A DNA stretch of 64,000 nucleotides from Mustelus asterias (Eukaryota): positions 62,001 through 126,000 of the forward strand of contig NW_027590163.1 in assembly GCF_964213995.1 (NCBI RefSeq), in the 5' to 3' direction. A model generated the notes under the pieces. It ran no database searches. It was not told the DNA's origin and was given only the letters and a program-made list of their open reading frames with translations. The translations under genes and the position numbers were made by a program. Below, one piece after another: positions 396-59,474 of this stretch (the first letter of the stretch is position 1; each line of letters begins with the position of its first letter).

Positions 396-567
396 ACAAG
401 AAAAATCGGATAAAATTTATCCTGTGAGGGTCAAGAATTGGGAAGCAATCTATTAAACCTCCTCTGAACCACTTTCAATGCATTTGTATCATTTCTTAAA
501 TAGGAGACAAAGCTGCAGCCAGTGTTCAAGATGCAGTCTCAGCAACGCCCTGTATAACTGAAGTACA

Positions 568-789
568 TGATGTGGAGATGCCGGCGTTGGACTGGGGTAA
601 GCACAGTAAGAAGTCTCACAACACCAGGTTAAAGTCCAACAGGTTTATTTGGTAGCAAATACCATAAGCTTTCGGAGCAATGCTCCTTCGTCAGATGGAG
701 TGGTCTCTGTTCTGAGACCACTCCATCTGACGAAGGAGCATTGCTCCGAAAGCTTATGGTATTTGCTACCAAATAAACCTGTTGGACTG
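568..789. mobile_element. Fold-back Penelope LTR insertion (family A) with hammerhead motifs on both strands
   Basis: Perfect 75-bp inverted arms 633-707/714-788; 13-bp TSD taactgaagtaca at 555-567 and 790-802; same sequence as the LTR following the GIY-YIG ORF at 13660-13756. Confidence 0.85.
723..759 (+). ncRNA. Minimal type I hammerhead ribozyme motif (mirror copy at 662-698 on minus)
   Basis: CCAU-CUGACGA-A-GGAGC(AUU)GCUCC-GAAA-GCU-U-AUGG: conserved core, stem II, stem I CCAU/AUGG, palindromic AGCU stem III. Confidence 0.75.
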
Positions 790-837
790 TAACTGAAGTA
801 CAACATCTTTACTTCTCTGTTCAATTTCTCTCGTAAT

Positions 838-5900: not shown

Positions 5901-6644
5901 AAATATATAACGTAGCTACAGTTCCACATTACAAAATATTCAGATCCCAAGGAATATGACTCTGTCTAGACGTGACGGTTGAGATTTTTGCCTGTGATTC
6001 CTCGTTCAAAATCTTGTGAAATGAGTTTGCAAAAGTCATCACAGTCAGTATAGGATAGAAATTCAGAGCAGACAATTCTAGTTTCTATGGAACATTCTTT
6101 CCTATTTCATTCCCAAAAAGTTGTAAATCTCCATCCATATCAATGGATTCTCACCTGGTGTTGTGAGACTTCTTACTGTGCTTACCCCAGTCCAACGCCG
6201 GCATCTCCACACTCTGAGCGGAGACAGAGAGAAGTAGGAGAGGCCGGAGGTGAGGAGAGAGATTTTATACATCTACAAATCAACAGGAACTTTGACAGAA
6301 TTTCCAAACCCTGTGAACACCATCAGGTCCAAGTTTCTCCCCAACTCACACACCACCCTGACTTGTCTGACATCCAGTACTGAAAGAACAGAAATTTATT
6401 TCATATAAATACTGGGAAGACTGAACCCATTGTGTTCAGTCCCCACTACAAACTCCACTCCCTCACCAACAACTTTATCTCTCCTCCTGGCAACTGTCTG
6501 AGGCTGAACCAGGCTGTTCACAACCAGGGTGAAATAGTTCATCTCAAGATGAGCTTCCAGCCACATGTCCACATCATCATCAAGACCACCTTCATTCATA
6601 GAAGCATTAATAGTAATTAATTAAAAGTAATGAATAATAAAATA

Positions 6645-7098: not shown

Positions 7099-7329
7099 GG
7101 GCTTCCCTCTCCGATCACAATCCCTGCCGGCCTCCCACATGCAGCCTCAATGGCGGCAGTCAGCCCGGGTCTAACACTACAAGCTGCAGCTCCATTTGGT
7201 ACAAAGGGAAGTTCATTTCCGGGGTTTGGGTTTGAACAACATGTTTACGAAGCCTCTCCACCCACCCGCCACATTTATCATTCCCCGCACGCCGCCCTCT
7301 ACCTGGTATTGATCTCGCTTCCGAGTTAA

Positions 7330-7565
7330 AACCATCCGTCTGTCCATCGCCATTACCCGCACTTCCTGCCCCTCATTCACTCCGCTTGGTTGGAGGACCA
7401 GCCGCTCCCGTTCGGTCCTCCAGCCCCGCCCCTCATTCACTCCGATTGGTTGGAGGACCAGCCACGCCCGCTCGGCCCTCCAACCCCGCCCCCTCTTCCT
7501 ATTGGTCCGGAGCTGCCGTCAATCAGTCCCCGGGCATTGTGATGTGGAGCATGCGCAGTGTCATT
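7330..7565. promoter_or_regulatory. Bidirectional CpG-rich promoter between ZNF-A and ZNF-B
   Basis: ATTGG (CCAAT) boxes, CCCCGCCCC GC boxes, ACTTCC ETS-like sites, GCATGCGCAG NRF1-like site; lies between divergent ZNF genes. Confidence 0.7.
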
Positions 7566-7973
7566 GCTGTCCTTGGCGCTTGTTTGTCCCGGAGAAGCGG
7601 AGTCAGCGTTAGGCGGTGGCTGGGAGGATTTGGAAACACTTTGTGGATCCGCAAACCCTTCAGAATCATTGTCAGCTCCCTGGTTTGCAACTGCGGGGCT
7701 TCTCCCTCCCTCCCTCCCGGGAACAGGCCCAGGTTAACGGCCCCATCCTGGCTCAGCCACTGGAGGATGGTTCACATCAGAGGATGGGGACAATAAATAA
7801 GAGGTTACACTTTGGCCTCAAATCAATGAGGACTCTGATCTCTGGGAAGGAAGGAAACCCTGGGAGGTGGGCGGGGAGGATTCACAAACACCCGCTGGAG
7901 GCCCCAACACCCCCAATCAGACCCATTGGTTTTATTGTCAGTCTGCAGACAGCAGCTGGAGAACTGAACCCAG

Positions 7974-8139
7974 TAAGAGTTTTAACAACACCAGGTTAAA
8001 GTCCAACAGGTTTATTTGGTAGCAAACACCATTAGCTACCATTAGGTGTTTGCTACCAAATAAACCTGTTGGACTTTAACCTGGTGTTGTTAAAACTCTT
8101 ACTGTGTTCACCCCAGTCCAACGCCGGCATCTCCACATC
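7974..8139. mobile_element. Fold-back Penelope LTR insertion (family A, no ribozyme core)
   Basis: ~60-bp inverted arms; 14-bp TSD agaactgaacccag at 7960-7973/8140-8153; absent from the paralogous site at ~19981. Confidence 0.85.
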
Positions 8140-13049: not shown

Positions 13050-13756
13050 CCTCAAACAAACCTCTGCAAGACGTGCCGGATCATTGACACGGATGCCATC
13101 ATCTCACGTGAGAACACCATCTACCAGGTACACGGTACCTACTCTTGCAACTCGGCCAACATTGTCTACCTGATACGCTGCAAGAAAGGATGTCCCGAGG
13201 CATGGTACATTGGGGAAACAATGCAGACACTACGACAACGGATGAATGAACACCGCTCGACAATCACCAGGCAAGACTGTTCTCTTCCTGTGGGGGAGCA
13301 CTTCAGCAGTCACGGGCATTCAGCCTTGGATCTTCAGGTAAGCGTTCTCCAAGGCGGCCTTCACGTCACACGACAGCGCAGAGTCGCTGAGCAGAAACTG
13401 ATAGCCAAGTTCTGCACACATGAGGACGGCCTAAACCGGGATGTTGGATTTATGTCACATTATCAGTAACACCCACAGCTTGCCTCCTGGGCTTGTAGAA
13501 TCTTAATAGCTGTTCTGTCTGGAGACAATACACATTTCTTTAACCCGTGTTTACTGTTCCCCCCACCCACATTGTCTGTACCTTTAAGACCTGGCTGGAG
13601 GATTCACATTCTAATCAGTATTCTGCAATTTGATTTTGCACTGTTTGAGAGCACATTTCCACTCCATCTGACGAAGGAGCAGTGCTCCAAAAGCTTATGG
13701 TATTTGCTACCAAATAAACCTGTTGGACTTTAACCTGGTGTTGTGAGACTTCTTAC
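13050..13756 (+). mobile_element. Penelope-like element 3' part: GIY-YIG endonuclease coding region plus LTR
   Basis: CKTC...NIVYLIRCKKGCPEAWYIGETMQTLRQRMNEH...EHF; LTR with hammerhead-like motif ~13664-13700 (GAAA mutated to AAAA). Confidence 0.9.
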
Positions 13757-14467
13757 GCTGTGCAGAGGGACAGGGGTGTCCTTGTGCAGGAATCTCAAAG
13801 AGTTGGTTTGCAGGTGCAACAGGTAATTAAGAAGGCAAATGGAATTTTGTCCTTCATTGCTCGAGGGATGGAGTTTAAAAACAGCGAGATTATGTTGCAG
13901 CTGTATAAGGTGCTGGTGAGGCCACACCTGGAATACTGTGTACAGTTTTGGTCTCCTTACTTGAGAAAGGATATACTGGCACTGGAGGGGGTGCAGAGGA
14001 GATTCACGAGGTTGATTCCGGAGTTGAGAGGGTTGGCTTATGAGCAGAAACTGAATAGACTGGGGCTATACTCATTGGATTTCAGAAGAATGAGGGGAGA
14101 TCTTATAGAAACATATAAGATTATGAAGGGAATAGATAAGATAGAAGCAGGGAAGTTGTTTCCACTGGCGGGTGAAACTAGAACTTGGGGGCATAGCCTC
14201 AAAATAAGGGGAAGCAGATTTAGGACTGAGTTGAGGAGGAACTTCTTCACACAAAGGGTTGTGAATCTGTGGAATTCCCTGCCCAGTGAAGCAGTTGGGG
14301 CTACCTCATTGAATGTTTTTAAGGCAAGGATAGATAAATTATTGAACAGTAAAGGAATTAAGGGCTATGGTGAGCAGGCGTGTAAGTGGAGCTGAGTCCA
14401 CAAAAAGATCAGCCACGAGGCTCGAGGGGCCAGATGGCCTACTCCTGCTCCTAGTTCTTATGTTCTT

Positions 14468-16964: not shown

Positions 16965-18711
16965 GGTGCAGGTGTCCTTGCCTCTCCCTTGGGTGGACAA
17001 TCAGTTGAAGCCTCGTCCACACACAGAACACGGGTACCGCCTCTACCCGCTGTGAATGGTGTGGTATTTATTCAGGCTGTGTAACTGGTTAAAGCTCTTT
17101 AGTCCGAGCACTAGAACACTCTCACTCGAGTGTGGCAGTGTGTTGGTGCTTTTCCAGTCACACTGATGTTTGAAATCTTTTCAAATCAACAGACTGGACA
17201 ATCATTTCTCCTTCTAGATTCAAAGGCCGATGATATTCAGCTCCCAAGGAATATGACTCTGTCAGATCTAGACGTGACGTTTGAGATTTCGGCCTGTGAT
17301 TCCTCTTTCAATATCCTGTAAAATGAGTTTACAAAAGTCATCAGTGTCAGTACAGGATAGAAATTCAGAACAGACAATTTCTATGGAACATTCTTTCCTC
17401 TCTCATTCCTCAAAAGCTGTAAATCTCCATCCCACACACTCTCCCTCCATTCTCACTCTGCTGTATCTAATATTCACCCTCCCAATTCTCCTGAAGGTGC
17501 TGATTGAGGCTGATTGACAGATCCATGCTCATTGCTTCCTGTCCTGGACACAGAGACCATAACAAATTGGAGCTGCAGTCGGCCATTTGGCTCATCGAGC
17601 CTTTTAAACTATTCAATGAGATAATTCATTCATCTACCTCAGCATCATTCTCCCCACACTAAACCCATATCCCTTGATATCTTCAATATCGAGAAACCAA
17701 TCAATCTCTCTCTTGAAAATAGTTGATGACTGAGGCTTCACTGTCCTCAAGGGTTGAGAATTCCAAATCTTTACCACATCCTTGAGTGAAGAAATCCCCC
17801 CACATCTTAGCTTTTGCTCCATCTTCTTGTCTGTTCCCCAAAACCTTTGACACCCTTGTCAGTCAAAAATCTGTCTAACTGGAATATATTCAATGATCCT
17901 CAGCCTCCACTGGTCCCTGTGGAAGAGAAATCCAAAAGACTAACAATCCTCTGAGGGAAGAGATGTCTGGAAAGATATAACGTAGCTACAGTTCCATATT
18001 ACAAAATATTCAGATCCCAAGGAATATGACTGTCTCGATGTGACAGTTGAGATTTTTGCCTGTGATTCCTCGTTCAAAATCTTGTGAAATGAGTTTGCAA
18101 AAGTCATCACAGTTAATATAGGATAGAAATTCAGAGCAGACAATTCTAGTTTCTATGGAACATTCTTTCCTATTTCATTCCCAAAAAGTTGTAAATCTCC
18201 ATCCATATCAATGGATTCTCATCTGGTGTTGTGAGACTTCTTACTGTGCTTACCCCAGTCCAACGCCGGCATCTCCACACTCTGAGTGGAAACAGAGAGA
18301 AGTAGGAGAGGCCGGAGGTGAAGAGAGAGATTTTATTCATCAACAACTCAACAGGAACTTTGACAGAATTTCCAAACCCTGTGAACACCATCAGCTCCAA
18401 GTTCCTCTCCAACCCACACACCATCCTGACTTGTCTGACATCCAGTACTGAAAGAACAGAAATTTATTTCATATAAATACTGGGAAGACTGAACCCATTG
18501 TGTTCAGTCCCCACTATGAACTCCACTCCCTCACCAACAACTTTATCTCTCCTCCTGGCAACTGTCTGAGGCTGAACCAGGCTGTTCACAACCAGGGTGA
18601 AATAGTTCATCTCAAGATGAGCTTCCAGCCACATGTCCACATCATCATCAAGACCACCTGCATTCATAGAAGCATTAATAGTAATTAATTAAAAGTAATG
18701 AATAATAAAAT

Positions 18712-19166: not shown

Positions 19167-19399
19167 GGGCTTCACTCTCCGATCACAATCCCTGCCGGCC
19201 TCCCACATGCAGCCTCAATGGCGGCAGTCAGCCCGGGTCTAACACTACAAGCTGCTGCTCCATTGGGTACAAAGGGGGGGACCGGGAAGTTCATTTCCGG
19301 GGCTTGGGTTTGAACAACATGTTTACGAAGCCTCTCCACCCACCCGCCACATTTATCATTCCCCGCGCGCCGCCCTCTACCTGGTATTGATCTCGCTTC

Positions 19400-19580
19400 C
19401 GAGTTAAAACCGCCTGTCCGTCGCCATTACCCGCACTTCCTGCCCCTCATTCACTCCGAATGGTTGGAGGACCAGCCGCTCCCGCTCGGTCCTCCAGCCC
19501 TGCCCCCTCTTCCTATTGGTCCGGAGCTGCCGTCAATCAGTCCCGGGGCATTGTGATGTGGAGCATGCGCAGTGTCATTG
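19400..19580. promoter_or_regulatory. Bidirectional promoter between ZNF-C and ZNF-D
   Basis: Same CCAAT/ETS/NRF1-like motifs; one copy of the ~59-bp unit that is doubled at 7368-7500. Confidence 0.65.
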
Positions 19581-20573
19581 CTGTCCTTGGCGCTTGTTTG
19601 TCCCGGAGAAGCGGAGTCAGCGTTAGGCGGTGGCTGGGAGGATTTGGAAACACTTTGTGGATCCGCAAACCCTTCAGAATCATTGTCAGCTCCCTGGTTT
19701 GCAGCTGCGGGGCTTCTCCCTCCCTCCCTCCCGGGAACAGGCCCAGGTTAACGGCCCCATCCTGGCTCAGCCACTGGAGGATGGTTCACATCAGAGGATG
19801 GGGGAGGGGGACAATAAATATGAGGTTACACTTTGGCCTCAAATCAATGAGGACTCTGATCTCTGGGAAGGAAGGAAACCCTGGGAGGTGGGCGGGGAGG
19901 ATTCACAAACACCCGCTGGAGGCCCCAACACCCCCAATAAGACCCATTGGTTTTATTGTCAGTCTGCAGACTGGAGCTGGAGAACTGAACCCAGACAGAG
20001 GAGAGGGAGGGAGAAAACTGGGAGTGGAGGAAAGAAATGGTGAGATGGGTTTGGATTTCAGCCCAGGGAGGAGGGAGAGTGTGTGGGACAGGGATTTACA
20101 GATTTTGGGGAACAAGAAAGGAAAAAATGTCCCAGAGAAACTAGAATTGTCTGTTCAGGATTTCTATCCTGGACTGACGCTGATGACTTTTCCAAATTTT
20201 TTTTAACAGGATATTGGAAGTGGAGGATTGGCAGACAGAAAACTCAAACCGAACATCATGACTGGCAAAGTCATTTTGTTCATTAGGAGCTGAATATCAT
20301 TGGTCTTTGAATATGGGAGGAGAAATATTTGACTCTTCTGTCTGTCGGCAAAGATTTTAAACATCAGTGTGACCGGAAAAGCATTGAAACAAACACACAC
20401 CCGATTGAGAGTGTTCCAGTGAACTGACTGTGGAAAGAGCTTTAACTAGTCCACAGCCTGAAAAAACATCACACAGTTAAGTTCACAGCAGGGTGAAATT
20501 ACATGTATGTTGTGTGTGTGGACGAGGTTTCAATTGATCATCCAACCTGGAGAAACACAAGGGCACCAGCACC

Positions 20574-24340: not shown

Positions 24341-24554
24341 TAAGAGTTTTAACAACACCAGGTTAAAGTCCGACAGGTTTATTTGGTAGCAAATACCATT
24401 AGTTTTCGGAGCGCTGACAAAGGAGCAGCGCTCCGAAAACTAATGGTATTTGCTACCAAATAAACCTGTTGGACTTTAACCTGGTGTTGTTAAAACTCTT
24501 ATTGTGTTCACCCCAGTCCAACGCCGGCATCTCCACATCATAACAACCATCGAC
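24341..24554. mobile_element. Fold-back Penelope LTR insertion (family A)
   Basis: ~75-bp inverted arms; 14-bp TSD gttgtaaaatacag 24327-24340/24555-24568; degenerate hammerhead core at centre. Confidence 0.85.
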
Positions 24555-26185: not shown

Positions 26186-26279
26186 CTCCCGGGTCAAGGT
26201 CGGAGGATAAACATTCTCTCCACCTCCGCCACCACCCCCGCGCCCCCCCTCCCCGCACGCCCCCAAAGATCTGCACTCA

Positions 26280-28856
26280 TTGGGGAGTGACTACGCGGGG
26301 GTCCTGGGGGAGAGCGTCGCTACCGGGGAGATGCCCCTTTCGTGGCGCAGGGCCGTCATTGCCCTGCTGCCCAAGAAGGGGGATCTCCACCTGCTCAAGA
26401 ACTGGCGCCCGGTCTCCCTCCTCAGCACGGATTATAAAATCTTTGCCAGGGCTATGGCTTCACGCCTTGGATCCGTGCTGGACCACTTGATCCACCCTGA
26501 CCAGTCCTACACGGTCCCGGGCCGTTGCATACATGACAATCTCCACCTGGTCCGGGACCTAATCCATCACACCCAGAGGGCTGGTCTGTCGGGCGCCTTC
26601 TTGTCATTAGATCAGGAGAAGGCGTTCGACAGGGTGGAGCACGAGTATTTACTCGGGACTCTGCGGGCATTCGGGTTCGGGACGCATTTTGTCGCCCGGA
26701 TCCGATTACTGTACTCTGCCGCAGAGTGTCTGATTAAGGTTAACGGGTCCCTGACGGCGCCCCTTCGCTTCGGGAGAGGAGTACGGCAGGGCTGCCCCTT
26801 GTCCGGCCAACTGTATTCCGTATGCGTGGAGCCATTCCTGCGCCTCTTGCGGAGGAGGTTGTCAGGTTTGGTCCTGCGCGGACCGGACGTAGGGGTGGTC
26901 CTGTCAGCTTACGCCGACGACGTGCTCCTCATGTTCACGGACCCGGCTGACCTGCGGAGGATGCGAGAATGCCAGGCGGTGTACTCCGCCGCGTCCTCCG
27001 CCAGGATCAACTGGGCCAAGTGCTCCGGACTCCTTGTCGGTCCTTGGGAGACGGACCCCCTTCCGGAGGAGCTCAGGCCTTTCACCTGGAGCAGGACCAA
27101 CCTCCTCTACTTGGGGGCCCATCTCTGCCCAGCCGAGGAATCCTGGCCGGCGAACTGGCGGGAGCTGGAGGCCAAAGTCTCCGCCCGCCTGGGTCGCTGG
27201 ACAGGACTGCTCCGAGTGCTGTCCTACGGGGCGCGAGCTCGCGTCATAAACCAGCTGGTCGCCTCCATGCTGTGGTACCGGCTGGTCCCTTTGACCCCTC
27301 CCCCTGGCTTTGTCACCGATATCCAGAGAACCCTCGTGCGGTTCTTCTGGGGCAATCGACTGCACTGGGTCCCTGCTGCGGTCCTGTATCTCCCGCTTGA
27401 GGAGGGCGGACAAGGTCTGGTGTGCCTCCGCACTCAGATAGCGACCTTCCGCCTCCAGGCCCTGCAGAGGTACCTTTACGTTGAGCCCCCTCCACAGTGG
27501 TGTGCCATGGCGACGTATTTCTTCCGCCAGTGGCACGGCCTCAATTATGACGTGCAGCTCCTGCATATCGAACTGGGGCGTGCTTCGACCACCCTGCAGG
27601 AGTTGCCCGTCTTTTACCAGGACCTCCTCACTGTCTGGAACAAGGTCGCCTCGCGACGCAGCTCTCCCCCGTCAGGAGTAGCGGCTCTTGTGCGAGAGCC
27701 GCTGCTCAGGAATCCGCTCCTCCAGCCGTATAACTTCAGGTGGCTGGCGGAGAGGGGGGCTGTGGACGCCGGGGTGACCAGAATCGGGGACGTGCTCGAT
27801 GGCGGAGGAGCGGGCTGGATGAGTCCCCGCGTGCTGGCTGAGCGCGCGGGGACGTCCGTCCGGCGCGCGGCCAAAGCCATCCTAGACCTTAGGACGGTCG
27901 TGCTCGGCCCCGAAACTGCACGCAAACTCGAGACGGCGCAGGCGTGCGGTGGGATCCCGCCCGAGCGTTCCCCTGTTCGGGCGGAATTCCACATTGGCCC
28001 AAAGCCTCAGCCCCCTCCCCTGGGTGAGGTGCCCCACAGCCTGAGCCGCCTCGCGGAAATGCCCTCCGTGCCTTTTTCTACCGCGCGGAGGCGTTTCCTG
28101 TGCGGGCTGCTGCTGCACACCCTCCACTACCGCCTCCTCGCCTGTCGCCCGGATACACCTTGGCGGGCCTTGTTGCCGCCGGGCGGCGGAGGTCCCCGCT
28201 GGAGGTCCCTCTACGGAGGGATCTCCCCCAATTACGTCGGGGACCTGGGGTGGAGGGTGATGCATGCAGCAGTTCCGCACAACCGTAGGATTCACTGGTT
28301 CACGGGCTCCGAAGACTGCCCTTTCTGTGGCCTTGTGGAGTCCGTGGACCATGTCTATGTTGAGTGTCTTAGGCTGCACTCCCTTTATGTTTTCCTGAAG
28401 AACCTTTTATTGATGTTTTGTTTACACTTCAGTCCCACGCTCCTGATCTACGGACACCCGGTGCGGAGAGGGGAGGGTCGGGATGGCGACCTCCTCGTGA
28501 ACCTGCTCCTGGGCCTGGCGAAACGCGCCATTTACCGGTCCAGGCAGCGGGCGATCGAGGGGGCCGTCCATCCTGACTGTCTTCCCCTCTACCGCGGCTA
28601 CGTTCGCGGCCAGGTGTCCCTGGAGAGGGAGCATGCGGTGTCCACGGGCGAGGTTGACGCTTTCCGCGCCCACTGGGCACCGCAGGGGTTGGGGTGCATT
28701 ATTGACCCTGATAATCACATTTTAATTTGATGTTTTTAAGTTTCCTTTGCATTTTGATTTCTGTTCGGGCTGTTCCCCCTCCTTTTTGGGGAGCTGCCCC
28801 TTTTACTTAGTCCTGATTTAATTTGAGTTTGTTTACTTGGTTTGACCTAAAAAGAG
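26280..28856 (+). mobile_element. Tx1-clade (L1 group) non-LTR retrotransposon, 5'-truncated; uninterrupted 816-codon ORF2 part (26280-28730)
   Basis: KNWRPVSLLSTDYK, SLDQEKAFDRV, GVRQGCPLS, YADD, C-terminal CPFC-x7-H-x4-C; GC/CpG-rich; T-rich 3' UTR. Confidence 0.9.
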
Positions 28857-31789: not shown

Positions 31790-31978
31790 GTAAGAAGTTT
31801 AACAACACCAGGTTAAAGTCCAACAGGTTTATTTGGTAGCAAAAGCCACACAAGCTTTCGGAGCTGCAAGCCCCCACTCACCTGAAGAAGGGGCTTGGAG
31901 CTCCGAAAGCTTGTGTGGCTTTTGCTACCAAATAAACCTGTTGGACTTTAACCTGGTGTTGTTAAACTTCTTACTGTG
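31790..31978. mobile_element. Fold-back Penelope LTR (family A, variant subfamily) with hammerhead at 31879-31915
   Basis: Inverted arms ~75 bp; CAC-CUGAAGA-A-GGGGC..GCUCC-GAAA-GCU-U-GUG. Confidence 0.85.
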
Positions 31979-31998
31979 GTAGTTTCAGACCACAGCAC

Positions 31999-32208
31999 GA
32001 GTTTTAACAACACCAGGTTAAAGTCCAACAGGTTTATTTGGTAGCAAATACCATTAGCTTTTGGAGCGCTGCTCCTTCGTCAGCTGGAGTGGAAATGTGC
32101 TCTCAAGCTAATGGTATTTGCTACCAAATAAACCTGTTGGACTTTAACCTGGTGTTGTTAAAACCCTTGCTGTGTTCACCCCAGTCCAACGCCGGCATCT
32201 CCACATCA
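31999..32208. mobile_element. Fold-back Penelope LTR (family A)
   Basis: Inverted arms; mutated hammerhead on minus at ~32051-32087. Confidence 0.8.
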
Positions 32209-34680: not shown

Positions 34681-35082
34681 GATGTGGAGATGCCGGCGTT
34701 GGACTGGGGTAAACACAGTCAGGAGTTTAACAACACCAGGTTAAAGTGCAACAGGTTTATTTGGTCGCAAAAGCCACAAGATTTCGGAGCCTTAAGCTCC
34801 TTCTTCAGGTGAGTGGGAATTCTGTTCACAAACAGGGCATAGAAAGATACAAACTCAATTTACAGAATAATGGTTGGAATGCGAATCCTTGCAGCTAATC
34901 AAGTCTTAAAGGTACAAACAATGTGAGTGGAGAGAGCATTAAGACAGGTTAAAGAGATGTCCAGATAGGACAGCCAGTGAAATTCTGCAAGTCCAGGCGA
35001 GCTGTGGGGATTACAGATAGTGTGACATGAACCCAATATCCCGGTTGAGGCCGTCCTCATGCGTGCGGAACTTGGCAATCAG
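34680..35082 (-). mobile_element. Penelope 3' end plus LTR with hammerhead (34775-34811)
   Basis: LIAKFRTHEDGLNRDIGFMSHY matches the ORF end at 13395-13469; CAC-CUGAAGA-A-GGAGC..GCUCC-GAAA-UCU-U-GUG. Confidence 0.85.
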
Positions 35083-36115
35083 TAAAGAGATTAAAAGGGA
35101 AGGTCTGTGATAGAGAGTATAACAGGATGGATGAACTGAAACAAGGAATGATGGACAAGGGCAACATTGGCTGGTTCTCATTATTTTTAAACTTTGCTGC
35201 TTTCCTGGGTGAACTCCAGCTCTCCATTCCTCCGGCAGCGTCACCAATCAAACTGAGTCTTTCTCTATCCCACTTTGTTAATCTCACAGTTACTGCTTTC
35301 TGAATGAAGACTGCTTGGAATCAGTCTAAGTCAAATAGATTACTGCTAAATTCAGTGAGAAGTTTCTTGTCATTCAGCAAGATATTTTTATCCAGAAATG
35401 AGTGATATTTTTGTCAGTGCAAACGGTTAAATCGACACATTACCACACAGATTTTACCTTATATCAACATCTCCAACGTCAGGCTATCACTATCTTTCAC
35501 TATCAGTATTGGTTGTCGAACTGACCTGATGCCCATATGACATTTCCAACTCGGAAGCAAAAATACTAATCTCACTCCACTGTTTCTGGCAGAGCTACTT
35601 TCGAGCAGAAAGTATTGCAGGTTTCTTTATCAAAACATTTAAATCTTAATATATCGCAGCCAGTCTGCGACTCGGAAAGGGCTGAACCCGAACCACTAGG
35701 ATCTCATCTTCCTGATTCTCCCAAATACTTATGACAGGATTGTGCACAGTGCCAATTATCGACATTCATACACTCCTCCCTGTCTGTTAAGACATTAAAT
35801 TGTTCATATTTTCACACTGGCTTCCAGTGTGACGAAAGCAGAGCTGTGATATGCTGATGTTGTTCAGCATCTTTAACACAACAGGTTTATAAAAGTTCGA
35901 TGCTAACATTGCTCTTTAAACGTGATGAGCTACAGTGAAATATAATGCAGCTGAAGGTAGCCTACTCATTTTTGCAGGAGGAATCAGCAAGGGCAATGTA
36001 AATATGAATTGCTGTGGATAATTGATGGAAATGTGCAATGGGACTGATATTTCGCCCTGCTGTTCAAATTGCCACAGGTACTGAACGACCATTTGTAGAT
36101 TGCTTATGTGTGCTG

Positions 36116-36525: not shown

Positions 36526-37363
36526 GATTCCATGGTGTAATGGTTCGCATTCTGGCCTCTCGCCTCCGAATTCTGGTTTAAATTGGGACGCATGAGTGAA
36601 TGAGTGACACATGTAGGTGGACCCCCTGCCCACTGTGGTGTCTCTGCTTCTCAGCCCTTTCTGTTCTTGAGCAATCGTTCTCTGGAGCTGATGCAATGAC
36701 GCCAGGAAAGTCATTCGCTGCATCGTCTGCAATGTGATTGCGCTGGAAATTGCTGAAATTTCCACAGTGTTTAGTTTTCCACTTTCTGAGAAGTAAAAAT
36801 GAAATGCGCTTCAGCAAACTCATCATCGTCTTTAGCAAATTCGAACAAACTTTCACCGAGTTCTGAACTCCGTTTACTGCATTCGGGGTCCAGAGTGCCC
36901 ACCATCACACCACAGAAACAGAAACAGAGCCACCTGATGCAAATGGTTATTCAAAGCATGTGACCTTTTTCATTCAATGCGGCAGCAACAGCAAGTGGGT
37001 CAAATGCTTTGAGTGACCATTTGCAGCCGGCTGCTATGTTGTAGGTCCTCTGGTCTAATGGTGACTACTCTGAATCCAGTGAACCGAGTTTAAATTTAGG
37101 CGGACCCTTGCTCTTCTTTGCCATTGTTGAGGATTGATTTGTCGATGGATCTTTTATTTCAGTTCCTCATAAAGCAGGAATCGGGAGGACAATTTGTCAG
37201 CCAGTTCAACTTCCAGTACATTGCACAATGCTGAGCCTCTGGCGATAGATGCCGACATCAGCAATGTTTTTTTTCATCTTTCGCTACTCTTTAAATCATC
37301 TGCTGAAAGAAAGAAGCAGTTGGTGTCACACAACAGCAACCATTCGACTGGAGACTGGCAATT

Positions 37364-42107: not shown

Positions 42108-42232
42108 ACCTGATGAAGGAGCAGTGCTCCTGAAAGCTCGCAATTCCAAATAAGCTTGTTGGACTTTAACCTGGTGTTGTGAGAATTCTTACTGTACCCA
42201 CTGAATTCCAACGCCGGCATCTTTGCATCATG
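42108..42232 (+). mobile_element. Penelope LTR fragment (family A) with hammerhead-like core
   Basis: ctgatgaaggagcagtgctcctgaaagctc...ctggtgttgtgaga...caacgccggcatc. Confidence 0.75.
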
Positions 42233-44319: not shown

Positions 44320-44525
44320 ATGAAATACTGCTGAGGCTGGAACCTGAAACACACAAAAAGAATACTGGAAAATCTCAGCAGGTCTGGCAGCATCTGTGAA
44401 GTGAGAACAGAGCCAGTGTGTCGAATCAGGAAATCTGATGAAGGGTCATCCAGATTTGAAACGCTGGTTTCCCCACAGATGCCGTCAGTTCTGCTGAGAT
44501 TTTCCAACATTTTCTGTTCCTGTTT
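44320..44525. mobile_element. Fold-back family-B element with hammerhead core (~44435-44467)
   Basis: Inverted arms; ctgatgaagggtcatccagatttgaaacgct. Confidence 0.65.
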
Positions 44526-55096: not shown

Positions 55097-55336
55097 TAAA
55101 AGCAAATTGCTGCGGATGCTGGAATCTGAAACCAAAAGGCGAAATGCTGGAAAATCTCAGCAGGTCCGGCAACATCTGTAAGGAAAGAAATGAGCAGACG
55201 TTTCGAGTCCAGATGGCCCTTTTCAAAGCTGACATTTCTAATTGAGCTTTGAAAAAGTGTCACCTGGACTCGAAACATCAGCTCCTTTCTCTCCTTACAG
55301 ATTCTGGCAGACCTGCTGGGATTTTCCAGCATTTTC
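55097..55336. mobile_element. Fold-back family-B element
   Basis: Inverted arms either side of ~55235 with degenerate hammerhead cores (gactcgaaac). Confidence 0.7.
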
Positions 55337-57390: not shown

Positions 57391-59474
57391 CTGCGAAGAC
57401 ACAGTCCCCCAGTTCGACATCAAGTCATTTCCTTCGCAAGCCGTATCGGGAGATAGCAGCAGAAATAGTCATGTCTCACAGGTCATTTGCAGCGCTTTGT
57501 TGTATCCTGCGTTCCGTGGTGTAACGGTAAGCACTCTGGACTTTGAATCCAACGATCTGCGTTCAAACTTCAGCGAGGCCGTCCCTTTCTTTGCCAATAA
57601 TGATGATTGCTTTGCGGAAGAGCATTTCATTTAAATTTTTCACAAAGTGTGAATCGAGAGGACAATTTGTCAGCCAGTTCAACTGCTATTTCAATGCACA
57701 TTGTTGATGCACCGGCGCCAGGTGCTTGCAACATCTGTGTTTTTCTCCCTTACTTTTCGCTACTCTTTAAAGCTTTGTCGAAACAAAGGAGCAGTTGGTG
57801 CCAAACAACAACAATCCTTCGAAAGTAGTCTGGCAATTATTGAGAAAGAGTGTGCAAGTGATATCTGGGTGAAAGGTTTCCTGCCTTAAACATGCGCCCT
57901 GTTGGTTCCATGGTGTAACGGTTAGCACTCTGGTTTCTTAATCCAGCAATCCGAGTTTGAATCTCGGGGAACCAGTATGCTCATCATCCCAACTCTTGTT
58001 TAACTTGGGGCAAGTGATTCAATGAATGGTATCGGTAGGGGAACCCTGACCAATGTGGCTTTTCTGGCACGGTGGCACAGTGGTTAGCACTGCTGCCTCA
58101 CAGTGCCAGGAACCGGGGTTCAGTTCTGTCTTCGGGTGTCTGTCTATGTGCAGTTTGCACTTTCTCCCCTTGTGGAAGGAAAACGAGCACCCGGCGGACA
58201 ATCCAATGATGTGCGGCTTCGGGTGATTGGCCATGCTAAATTGTCCATAGCATCAGAGGGACGAACAGGGCAAATACGTGGGGTTACGGGGATCGAGCCT
58301 GGGTGGGATTGTTGCCGGTGCAGGCTCGATGGACCGAATGGCTCCCGTCTGCACAGGAGGGATTCAATGATTCTGTGTCTGAGCGTTTTGTATTCTTGAG
58401 CAATCGTTCTCTCGGGTTGAGGCAATGACACCAGCAGAGTCATTCGCTGCATCGTCTGCAGTGTTTAAAATACCACTTTCTGAGAATTTTAAATAAAATG
58501 CCCTTCAGCAAACCCATCATCGGCTTTGGCAAAGAAAAGCAAGGTTACACCGAGATCTAAATTCGGATCGCTGGATTCAGAGTCCAGAGTGTTCGCCATT
58601 ACACCACAGATCCAGGAGCACAGCAGCCATCTGCAAATGGTCACTCAAAGCATGTGACCTCTTTCATTCAATATGGCAGCAACACCAAGTGGGTGAAATG
58701 CTTTGAGTGAGAATTAGCAGCTGGCTGCTCTGTTCTATGTGCTCTGGTCGAATGGTGAGCACTCTGGATCCAGAGGCGGATTTTTGATTTCTTTCCAAAA
58801 GCTGATGATTAGTTTACTGAAGGAAATTTCGTTTAAATTTTTCACCAAGTACGAAGCGAGAGGACAAATTGTCAGCCAGTTTAACTTCTATTACATTGCA
58901 CATTGCTGAGCCTCTGGCGACAGATGCCTGCAACATCAGTGTTTTTTTAAAGTCTTTTCTCTTCTCTTTAACTTGTCTGTTCAAAGAAAGGGGCAGCTGA
59001 TGTCACATAACAACTATTCAACTGGAGACAGACAATTATTGTGCAAGTGTGTGTGTGTGTGTGAGTTGGAAGAATGGTCTAGTATTTTAGGTCAGAGTGC
59101 TGTCGTTTCCATGGTGTAACGGTTAGCACTCTGGACTGTCGCCGTCCCACCTCTTACGTAGATTGGGACAGATGAGTGAGTCAATAACATCTGTAGGTGG
59201 ACCCCCTGCTTTCTGTGGCACCTCTGCCTCTGAGCCCTTTGTATTCTTGAGCAGTCGTCCTCTGGGGATGATGCAATGGCGCCAGGAGACACATTCACTG
59301 CATCGTCTGCAGTGTATTTGCGGTGGAATTTGATGAAAACATTTCAATGTTCCGAATTCCACTTTCTGAGCCTTTGAAATAAAATGTCCTTCAGCAAACC
59401 GGTCATCGGCTTCAGCAAAGAAAAGCAAGGTTTCACCAAGATTTGAACTCAGATCGTTGGTTTCAGTGTCCAGA
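56918..59474. pseudogene. Tandem tRNA-Gln pseudogenes (+56918 half, -57224-57295, +57510-57581, +57904-57974, -58542-58613, +58738 fragment, +59106 half, -59428-59474)
   Basis: Recognisable Gln sequences in repeating +,+,- units. Confidence 0.7.
58045..58372 (+). mobile_element. HE1-like SINE inserted in Gln unit
   Basis: ggcacggtggcacagtggttagcactgctgcctcacag head. Confidence 0.8.

What the first reader, a model, noticed from the sequence alone, without database searches (positions are those of the whole stretch)
568..789. Fold-back Penelope LTR mini-elements carrying a hammerhead ribozyme on each strand
Seen: a 222-bp insert with perfect 75-bp arms, a 13-bp TSD and an intact minimal hammerhead core in each arm, so transcription in either direction would contain one. 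The same architecture recurs at 7974, 24341, 31790 and 31999 with different fold-back points. The two arms share private variants (loop ATT here; gaaaact at ~24435), so the second arm was probably copied during insertion. Known: Penelope-like elements encode minimal, dimer-acting hammerheads and make inverted LTR structures. Inference: in this genome most copies are ORF-less ~170-220 bp hairpins, a MITE-like class of potential dsRNA/ribozyme cassettes seeded into introns and promoters of a ZNF cluster.
Basis: partly seen in the sequence, partly recalled or inferred. Interest (0 to 1): 0.7.

Follow-up and report, generated by a model that had tools for sequence, protein, structure and literature searches.

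The report
Two-armed Penelope insertion, palindromic target site
This hairpin is one of many thousands of mirror-image stumps left by a Penelope-type jumping gene at a symmetric DNA motif, likely because both cut DNA ends copy the same RNA, so it is a known shape rather than a new mini-element class, and its ribozymes are predicted to be locked shut by the hairpin.

Summary
The 222-bp insert, 75-bp perfect arms, 13-bp duplication and two hammerhead cores at 568-789 are real (11 empty paralogous sites). It is the known inverted-pLTR-plus-tail insertion of an abundant Penelope-like retrotransposon (57,995 exact tails; RT/GIY-YIG parent found), not a MITE-like class. Only 1 of the 5 window hairpins, and 25 of 81 unselected ones, has two cores. 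Lengths run 72-3,326 bp. The 'private' ATT loop has 2,779 copies. DNA fold-back cannot be the general rule: in 43 of 109 units each arm holds sequence the other lacks. Both arms start at fixed RNA sites 37 nt apart, share subfamily (58 of 60), and targets fit CTG-N16/17-CAG (144 of 169 at 5+/6 versus 7 expected), with a central ~12-bp duplication. Best reading: a dimer nicks both strands and each end primes cDNA on one RNA. The hairpin is predicted to bury its ribozymes (66 kcal/mol), yet shorter copies end at the predicted cut, suggesting cleavage in vivo. The scan noted this architecture before (206 findings, 24+ genomes), and the motif once in this genome.

The parts
568..789 (.). Two-armed (head-to-head) 5'-truncated insertion of a Penelope-like element, 222 bp
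   Evidence: absent from 11 paralogous sites; identical in 6 segmental duplicates
555..567 (+). Left target duplication (13 bp seen; the central 12 bp, 555-566, fit the motif frame)
790..802 (+). Right target duplication
550..552 (+). CTG half-site of the target motif
   Evidence: site scores 5 of 6, spacer 16
804..806 (+). Second half-site (CAT, one mismatch to CAG)
568..713 (-). Tail-bearing arm: pLTR end up to the ORF start codon; includes the loop 708-713
568..606 (-). About 37-nt 'tail' between the two usual arm start sites
714..788 (+). Tail-less arm; ends about 25 nt short of the usual site
662..698 (-). Minimal type I hammerhead motif, predicted cut between 666 and 665
   Evidence: activity untested
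723..759 (+). Minimal type I hammerhead motif, predicted cut between 755 and 756
   Evidence: activity untested
7974..8139 (.). Two-armed copy, 166 bp, 14-bp duplication, perfect CTG-N16-CAG target, no hammerhead core; tail-less arm is the longer
24341..24554 (.). Two-armed copy, 214 bp, 14-bp duplication, perfect CTG-N16-CAG target, one mutated core, tail runs 15 nt into the ORF
31790..31978 (.). Two-armed copy with both arms tail-less, one core, no clean duplication
31988..32207 (.). Two-armed copy; tail-less arm 46 nt longer at its 5' end; one mutated core
13059..13764 (+). One-armed tail-less copy reaching into the ORF 3' end
34681..35083 (-). One-armed tail-bearing copy
6144..6211 (+). 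Short one-armed copy; a near-identical one at 18212-18279
42108..42222 (+). Older one-armed copy (87% to reference)

Best explanation
The hairpin is a truncated, two-armed insertion of a Penelope-like retrotransposon into a near-palindromic CTG-N16-CAG site, likely made when a paired enzyme nicks both strands about 12 bases apart and each free DNA end primes its own cDNA on the same RNA. One cDNA starts at the tail end beside the ORF start codon, the other about 37 nt further in; both stop early and their ends are joined head-to-head, which gives the stem, the one-sided tail and the duplication. Shown: architecture, fixed start sites, target motif, arm concordance, the parent ORF. Inferred: dimer, nick positions, 3' overhangs, use of a single RNA, end joining. 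The copy is a dead by-product. Read-through RNA would form a 75-bp duplex that buries both hammerheads. The ribozyme likely acts only on some of the element's own template RNA before copying; this copy came from uncut RNA.
For: Parent: 915-codon open frame with RT (PF00078, E 4e-10) contiguous with this pLTR; GIY-YIG hit on a second copy (E 3e-4, just under cut-off). Of 109 canonical two-arm units the tail-less arm reaches further 5' in 43, about equal in 36, the tail arm in 30 (sign test p 0.16); in the 43 neither arm can be a DNA copy of the other; L067 has a 2.9-kb tail-less arm and a 0.3-kb tail arm. Arm starts cluster at about 0 and -37. Arms share subfamily type in 58 of 60, 60 of 62 and 31 of 31 typed pairs (shuffles 14, 24, 9); 5' ends correlate (rho 0.72; 22 of 81 within 5 nt versus 4.5). 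Target: CTG left of 122 and CAG right of 111 of 169 sites (distal controls 17 and 15); 75 of 169 match 6 of 6 versus 0.6 expected; duplication edges lie 2 nt inside the half-sites in 65 and 66 of 104. Both primer ends pair with the RNA beyond the start site (mean 1.09 and 1.27 nt versus 0.4). One target is used in both orientations, and a second subfamily hit the same 13 bp in a paralog of this locus. Head-to-head 1,995 loci versus tail-to-tail 1. PMC11167929 (abstract and main-text results read): an anole PLE protein cuts and extends both strands, starts at two RNA sites flanking the tail, and is predicted to be a dimer.
Against: 66 of 109 units (tail arm longer or equal) are also compatible with fold-back, this copy among them (tail arm 6 nt longer, no seam homology). 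The rare GAAAACT change in both arms at 24341 fits fold-back equally well. Short inverted pieces inside many seams show that local snap-back happens. 25 of 99 tail copies have no inverted arm. 25 of 169 targets match 4 or fewer of 6 motif bases. Most sampled copies come from one chromosome (C1), many from its first 4.7 Mb. No biochemistry; the dimer is borrowed from another clade's predicted model.
Confidence: 0.72

Rival explanations
1. Fold-back: the first cDNA snaps back on itself and is copied, so the second arm is a DNA copy of the first.
For: Near-symmetric arms and correlated 5' ends; shared variants; short inverted inserts at seams; this copy fits.
Against: 43 of 109 units have sequence unique to each arm; no bias to the tail arm, including 9 versus 7 at one recurrent seam; the tail-less arm ends at a fixed site with primer pairing; a few units have arms of different subfamily, e.g. 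L088, L101.
Confidence: 0.12
2. Each nick primes on a separate RNA molecule held by the two subunits, usually from the same source locus.
For: Rare discordant arms (L088, L080, L101); symmetric target.
Against: Strong correlation of 5' ends and both arms ending at the same cut point in several units favour one molecule.
Confidence: 0.1
3. The hairpin is a MITE-like unit, or a hairpin RNA copied whole (including self-priming on an antisense template, as proposed in PMC3846280), that spreads with its seam intact.
For: The exact 568 seam occurs 6 times; 18 of 50 short copies share one 29-nt seam.
Against: All 6 share flanks at 96.6-100% identity, so they are segmental duplicates; 81 of 81 unselected end pairs differ; the shared seam occurs in both polarities and three subfamily backgrounds and sits at the predicted cut.
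Confidence: 0.05
4. Assembly artefact.
For: Palindromes are a known artefact class; no read set spanning this exact seam was listed.
Against: Target duplications, empty paralogs, six identical filled paralogs, arms that have diverged from each other by 3.6% on average, and like joints in independent public runs.
Confidence: 0.01

Closest known systems
Canonical EN+ Penelope-like insertions with an adjacent inverted 5'-truncated copy and one-sided 30-40 bp tail (PMC8557442, passages and Fig. 2 legend; Adineta Pen2a, PMC3846280, passages)
   Same: Head-to-head arms, tail on one arm, target duplication, hammerhead in the pLTR, heavy 5' truncation.
   Different: Here the two-arm form is the majority (74 of 99), many copies are ORF-less stumps, and targets follow a palindromic CTG-N16/17-CAG motif rather than the AT-rich or microsatellite targets those papers mention.
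Poseidon of Anolis carolinensis, PAc (PMC11167929, abstract and results read)
   Same: Two RT start sites flanking the tail; both strands cut and extended; predicted dimer; uncut RNA is the main template.
   Different: PAc prefers ATT, starts 111-118 nt inside the ORF and showed no pairing to the cut DNA or reads ending at the ribozyme cut; this family starts at the ORF start, shows 1-2 nt pairing, and has copies ending at the cut.
Neptune/Nematis clades of PLEs (PMC8557442, passages)
   Same: CX4CX2C linker before a C-terminal GIY-YIG domain, DKG motif.
   Different: No tree was built; clade assignment rests on the motif.
L1 twin priming (recalled; original paper not held)
   Same: Both target ends prime cDNA on one RNA, giving an inversion inside a duplication.
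   Different: In L1 the second priming point is variable and the two pieces barely overlap; here it is fixed 37 nt away, so the pieces overlap and form a hairpin.
Non-LTR retrozymes (10.64898/2026.07.22.740005, abstract, introduction and part of methods read) and MITEs (recalled)
   Same: Short, non-coding, PLE-related or inverted-repeat, high copy.
   Different: Retrozymes are tandem direct repeats; MITEs have matching termini and fixed length. Neither holds here.

Membership tests
EN+ Penelope-like element | Single ORF with RT domain joined to the pLTR | tested here: met
   915-codon frame in L067, PF00078 E 4e-10, DKG motif; ORF starts at the tail end
EN+ Penelope-like element | C-terminal GIY-YIG endonuclease with two cysteines between the motifs | tested here: met
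   PF01541 E 2.8e-4 on L125 (21.6 bits, cut-off 22.6; no hit listed for L067); motif and cysteines visible in the translation
EN+ Penelope-like element | Tandem or partial-tandem copies forming pLTRs | tested here: met
   ORF-pLTR-ORF in L125, L116
EN+ Penelope-like element | Inverted 5'-truncated copy with 30-40 bp tail on one side | tested here: met
   109 of 114 two-arm units in the expected end ranges; tail about 37 nt
Neptune/Nematis clade | CX2-5CxxC linker between RT and EN | tested here: met
   CX4CX2C in P0001 (definition)
Neptune/Nematis clade | Placement in an RT tree | not tested
   No reference PLE proteins were at hand
Minimal type I hammerhead | Core bases, stems I and II, palindromic helix III | tested here: met
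   Both arms of 568 (definition from PMC4209133 passages)
Minimal type I hammerhead | Able to fold in its transcript, with a second sense copy for a dimer | tested here: not met
   Forced fold 66 kcal/mol above the hairpin in both directions; one sense copy per transcript, preceded by its complement
Minimal type I hammerhead | Self-cleavage | not testable with these tools
   Indirect only: arm ends at -2..+1 versus +2..+5 of the cut, 44:9 and 50:9
MITE | Matching terminal inverted repeats and uniform length | tested here: not met
   Termini differ by the tail; 72-3,326 bp
MITE | Moves as a unit | tested here: not met
   81 distinct end pairs in 81; six identical copies share flanks
Non-LTR retrozyme | Tandem direct units each with a hammerhead | tested here: not met
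   Arrangement is head-to-head

The most novel reading that the evidence does not exclude
This family's RT-endonuclease is a sequence-specific dimeric nuclease for CTG-N16-CAG that makes a 12-nt staggered cut and copies one RNA onto both ends at once. That would explain the inverted pLTR, the one-sided tail and the duplication of Penelope elements in one step, and about 1,900 short copies ending at the predicted cut would be a genomic record that the minimal hammerhead cleaves in the germ line.
Probability: 0.55. Interest if true: 0.7.

Novelty: new variant of a known kind. Interest (0 to 1): 0.45.

Why it matters
The hairpin itself is ordinary. But how Penelope elements make inverted ends is stated as open in PMC8557442 and PMC11167929, and this family gives a precise test: a defined palindromic target, a predicted 12-nt stagger, two fixed priming sites and a ribozyme-cut end class. 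A two-ended, semi-specific RNA-to-DNA inserter would also interest genome engineers. Tens of thousands of 50-800-bp stems are a possible double-stranded RNA load for the host, untested here.

Tried and rejected
DNA search of the genome with the arm found nothing because common words are skipped; exact patterns were used instead. Rfam gave only hairpin-driven microRNA matches below gathering score and no hammerhead family. No PDB sequence match for the ORF. No RNA holder was listed for the locus, so expression, editing and small RNAs were not examined. Laying four public DNA runs showed the family and similar joints but not this seam. Homogenisation of arms after insertion was rejected: arms differ by 3.6% on average, more than from the nearest other unit (2.2%; a minimum over many, so biased low). 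In unselected units 5' ends did not peak at the ribozyme cut but 0-30 nt upstream of the core; a transcription start there is possible, TATA-like boxes occur in only some subfamilies, untested. Two papers recalled by id were not held. Searches for a published twin-priming or palindromic-target model for PLEs (listings only) and for shark PLE hairpins showed none; subscription papers, Repbase notes and supplements were not seen. No complex prediction was run.

Full report
Observation. The insert spans 568-789 between two identical 13-bp flanks, with perfect 75-bp arms (633-707, 714-788) and a 6-nt loop. A flank pattern gave 18 genome sites: 11 empty with the 13-mer once, 6 with this insert, 1 with a different insert. 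The 6 filled sites share flanks at 96.6-100% and the insert at 100%, so they are segmental duplicates of one event. Hammerhead cores lie at 670-694 (-) and 727-751 (+). The other four window hairpins are real but none has two intact cores. The host is probably a shark (tool labels and earlier notes; not established here).

Identity. The 28-nt tail has 57,995 exact matches in 3.68 Gb. Where it continues, it runs into an ORF start (762 matches). One copy holds a 915-codon frame with RT, DKG, a CX4CX2C linker and a GIY-YIG-type end, which by the definitions in PMC8557442 (passages) points to Neptune/Nematis; no tree was made. An inverted 5'-truncated copy and a one-sided 30-40 bp tail are described as common for these elements (PMC8557442 and PMC3846280, passages), and minimal hammerheads in pLTRs are known (PMC4209133, passages). 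So the architecture is known.

How common and how long. Of 99 exact-tail copies in stretches chosen only for the tail, 59 have an inverted arm plus a duplication of 9 bp or more, 15 an inverted arm without a clean duplication, 25 none. From 240 units in 888 kb of C1 plus the window, 114 were plain two-arm units away from edges; 5 with atypical ends were dropped, leaving 109, of which 81 were not selected for hammerhead or long tail. These 81 run 72-3,326 bp (median 251; 18 within 170-225) with 81 different end pairs; 25 have both cores, and only 2 of the 40 at or under 250 bp do. This is a truncation continuum, not a MITE-like class.

How the second arm is made. The ATT loop has 2,779 exact matches, so it marks a source subfamily; GAAAACT is rare (78) and shared by both arms at 24341, which fits any one-template model. 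The decisive count is which arm is longer. In 43 of 109 the tail-less arm reaches 6 nt or more further 5' while the other arm alone has the tail, so neither can be a DNA copy of the other; 36 are within 5 nt and 30 have the tail arm longer. L067 is the extreme case. Arms start at about 0 and -37, agree in subfamily in 58 of 60, 60 of 62 and 31 of 31 typed pairs (loop type 41 of 58, mostly single-base CpG-type changes), and their 5' ends correlate (rho 0.72). I infer two cDNAs from one RNA. Against: 66 of 109 units, this one included, also fit fold-back; seams often hold short inverted pieces; a few units have discordant arms.

Target. Among 169 rebuilt empty sites, CTG lies within 7 nt left of the duplication in 122 and CAG within 7 nt right in 111 (distal controls 17 and 15; wrong-way 3 and 2), with spacers of 16 (56) and 17 (23). 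75 match 6 of 6 and 144 match 5 or more, against 0.6 and 7.4 for random sites. Duplication edges lie 2 nt inside the half-sites in about 63% of 104 frames, giving 12 bp. With nicks so placed, both primer ends pair with the RNA just past the start site (1.09 and 1.27 nt versus 0.4). The 568 site scores 5 of 6 and lies in a decayed CR1 RT fragment; another subfamily used the same 13 bp in a paralog, and CR1 sites recur in both orientations. A symmetric site, symmetric pairing and either-way use fit a dimer. PMC11167929 (results read) shows both strands cut and extended, two start sites flanking the tail and a predicted dimer, but reports an ATT preference. I derived the motif; an unreviewed note on this genome states the same.

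The ribozymes. Because the arms are head-to-head (1,995 loci versus 1 tail-to-tail for one subfamily pattern), read-through in either direction makes the antisense arm first; forcing the hammerhead stems costs 66 kcal/mol, and each transcript has one sense copy, so no dimer. The cassette idea is therefore unlikely. In unselected units 5' ends cluster upstream of the core, not at the cut. But in targeted samples of short hairpins (first 50 of 1,582 and first 50 of 1,870 loci) arm ends fall off sharply after the predicted cut: 44 versus 9 and 50 versus 9 for positions -2..+1 versus +2..+5 (p about 1e-5 and 6e-7 against a simple window model); the longer arm ends within 1 nt of the cut in 33 and 22 of 50. 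A few rows were typed to the wrong subfamily. 18 of 50 share one seam, 9 with the tail arm longer, 7 the reverse, 2 unoriented. This suggests that some template RNA is self-cleaved in vivo, roughly 1,900 exact-anchor copies; RT stalling is not excluded. PAc RNA data showed no such ends.

Context. The insert is 3.5 kb beyond a minus-strand ZNF exon and about 7 kb from the next ZNF upstream; intron or promoter status of the others was not established. Enrichment in the window is weak and post hoc.

Novelty and verdict. The shape is known and the scan has met it often (206 findings in 24 or more genomes). My searches showed no paper giving twin priming or a palindromic target for PLEs, within a library that lacks most subscription papers; supplements were not seen. 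The finding as written is overstated; the family data make the open mechanism testable. Interest 0.45.

Noticed in passing
L257 (G000:C549), paralog of window 555-567: An independent insertion of another subfamily uses the same 13-bp duplication and polarity as the 568 copy.
   Followed up: yes
L001, L009, L022, L168, L231 and others: The same CR1 position is hit repeatedly, in both orientations, because it fits the motif.
   Followed up: partly
window 55142-55334, 44347-44525, 245-350: A different inverted-repeat family (82-nt arms, 85%) with a hammerhead-like core at 44435-44461; probably another, older Penelope-like or SINE-related family.
   Followed up: no
window 36886-37077 and 58583-58768: Imperfect 77-80 nt inverted repeats with tRNA-like ends, next to tRNA genes.
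   Followed up: no
window 33821-58613: Eight tRNA or tRNA-like genes interspersed with the ZNF cluster.
   Followed up: no
L067:7921-7990, also L006, L024: A young subfamily carries about 50 bp of extra sequence between duplicated ORF-end bases, apparently captured and propagated.
   Followed up: no
L112-L141: Many long-tail copies stop about 90 nt into the ORF, a possible third priming or jump site.
   Followed up: no
window 26211-28730: 839-codon frame resembling a Tx1/L1-type RT, unrelated to the finding.
   Followed up: no
window 7236-7796 and 19391-20206; 6144 and 18212: Internal duplication of ZNF gene units within the window, including a short PLE end.
   Followed up: no
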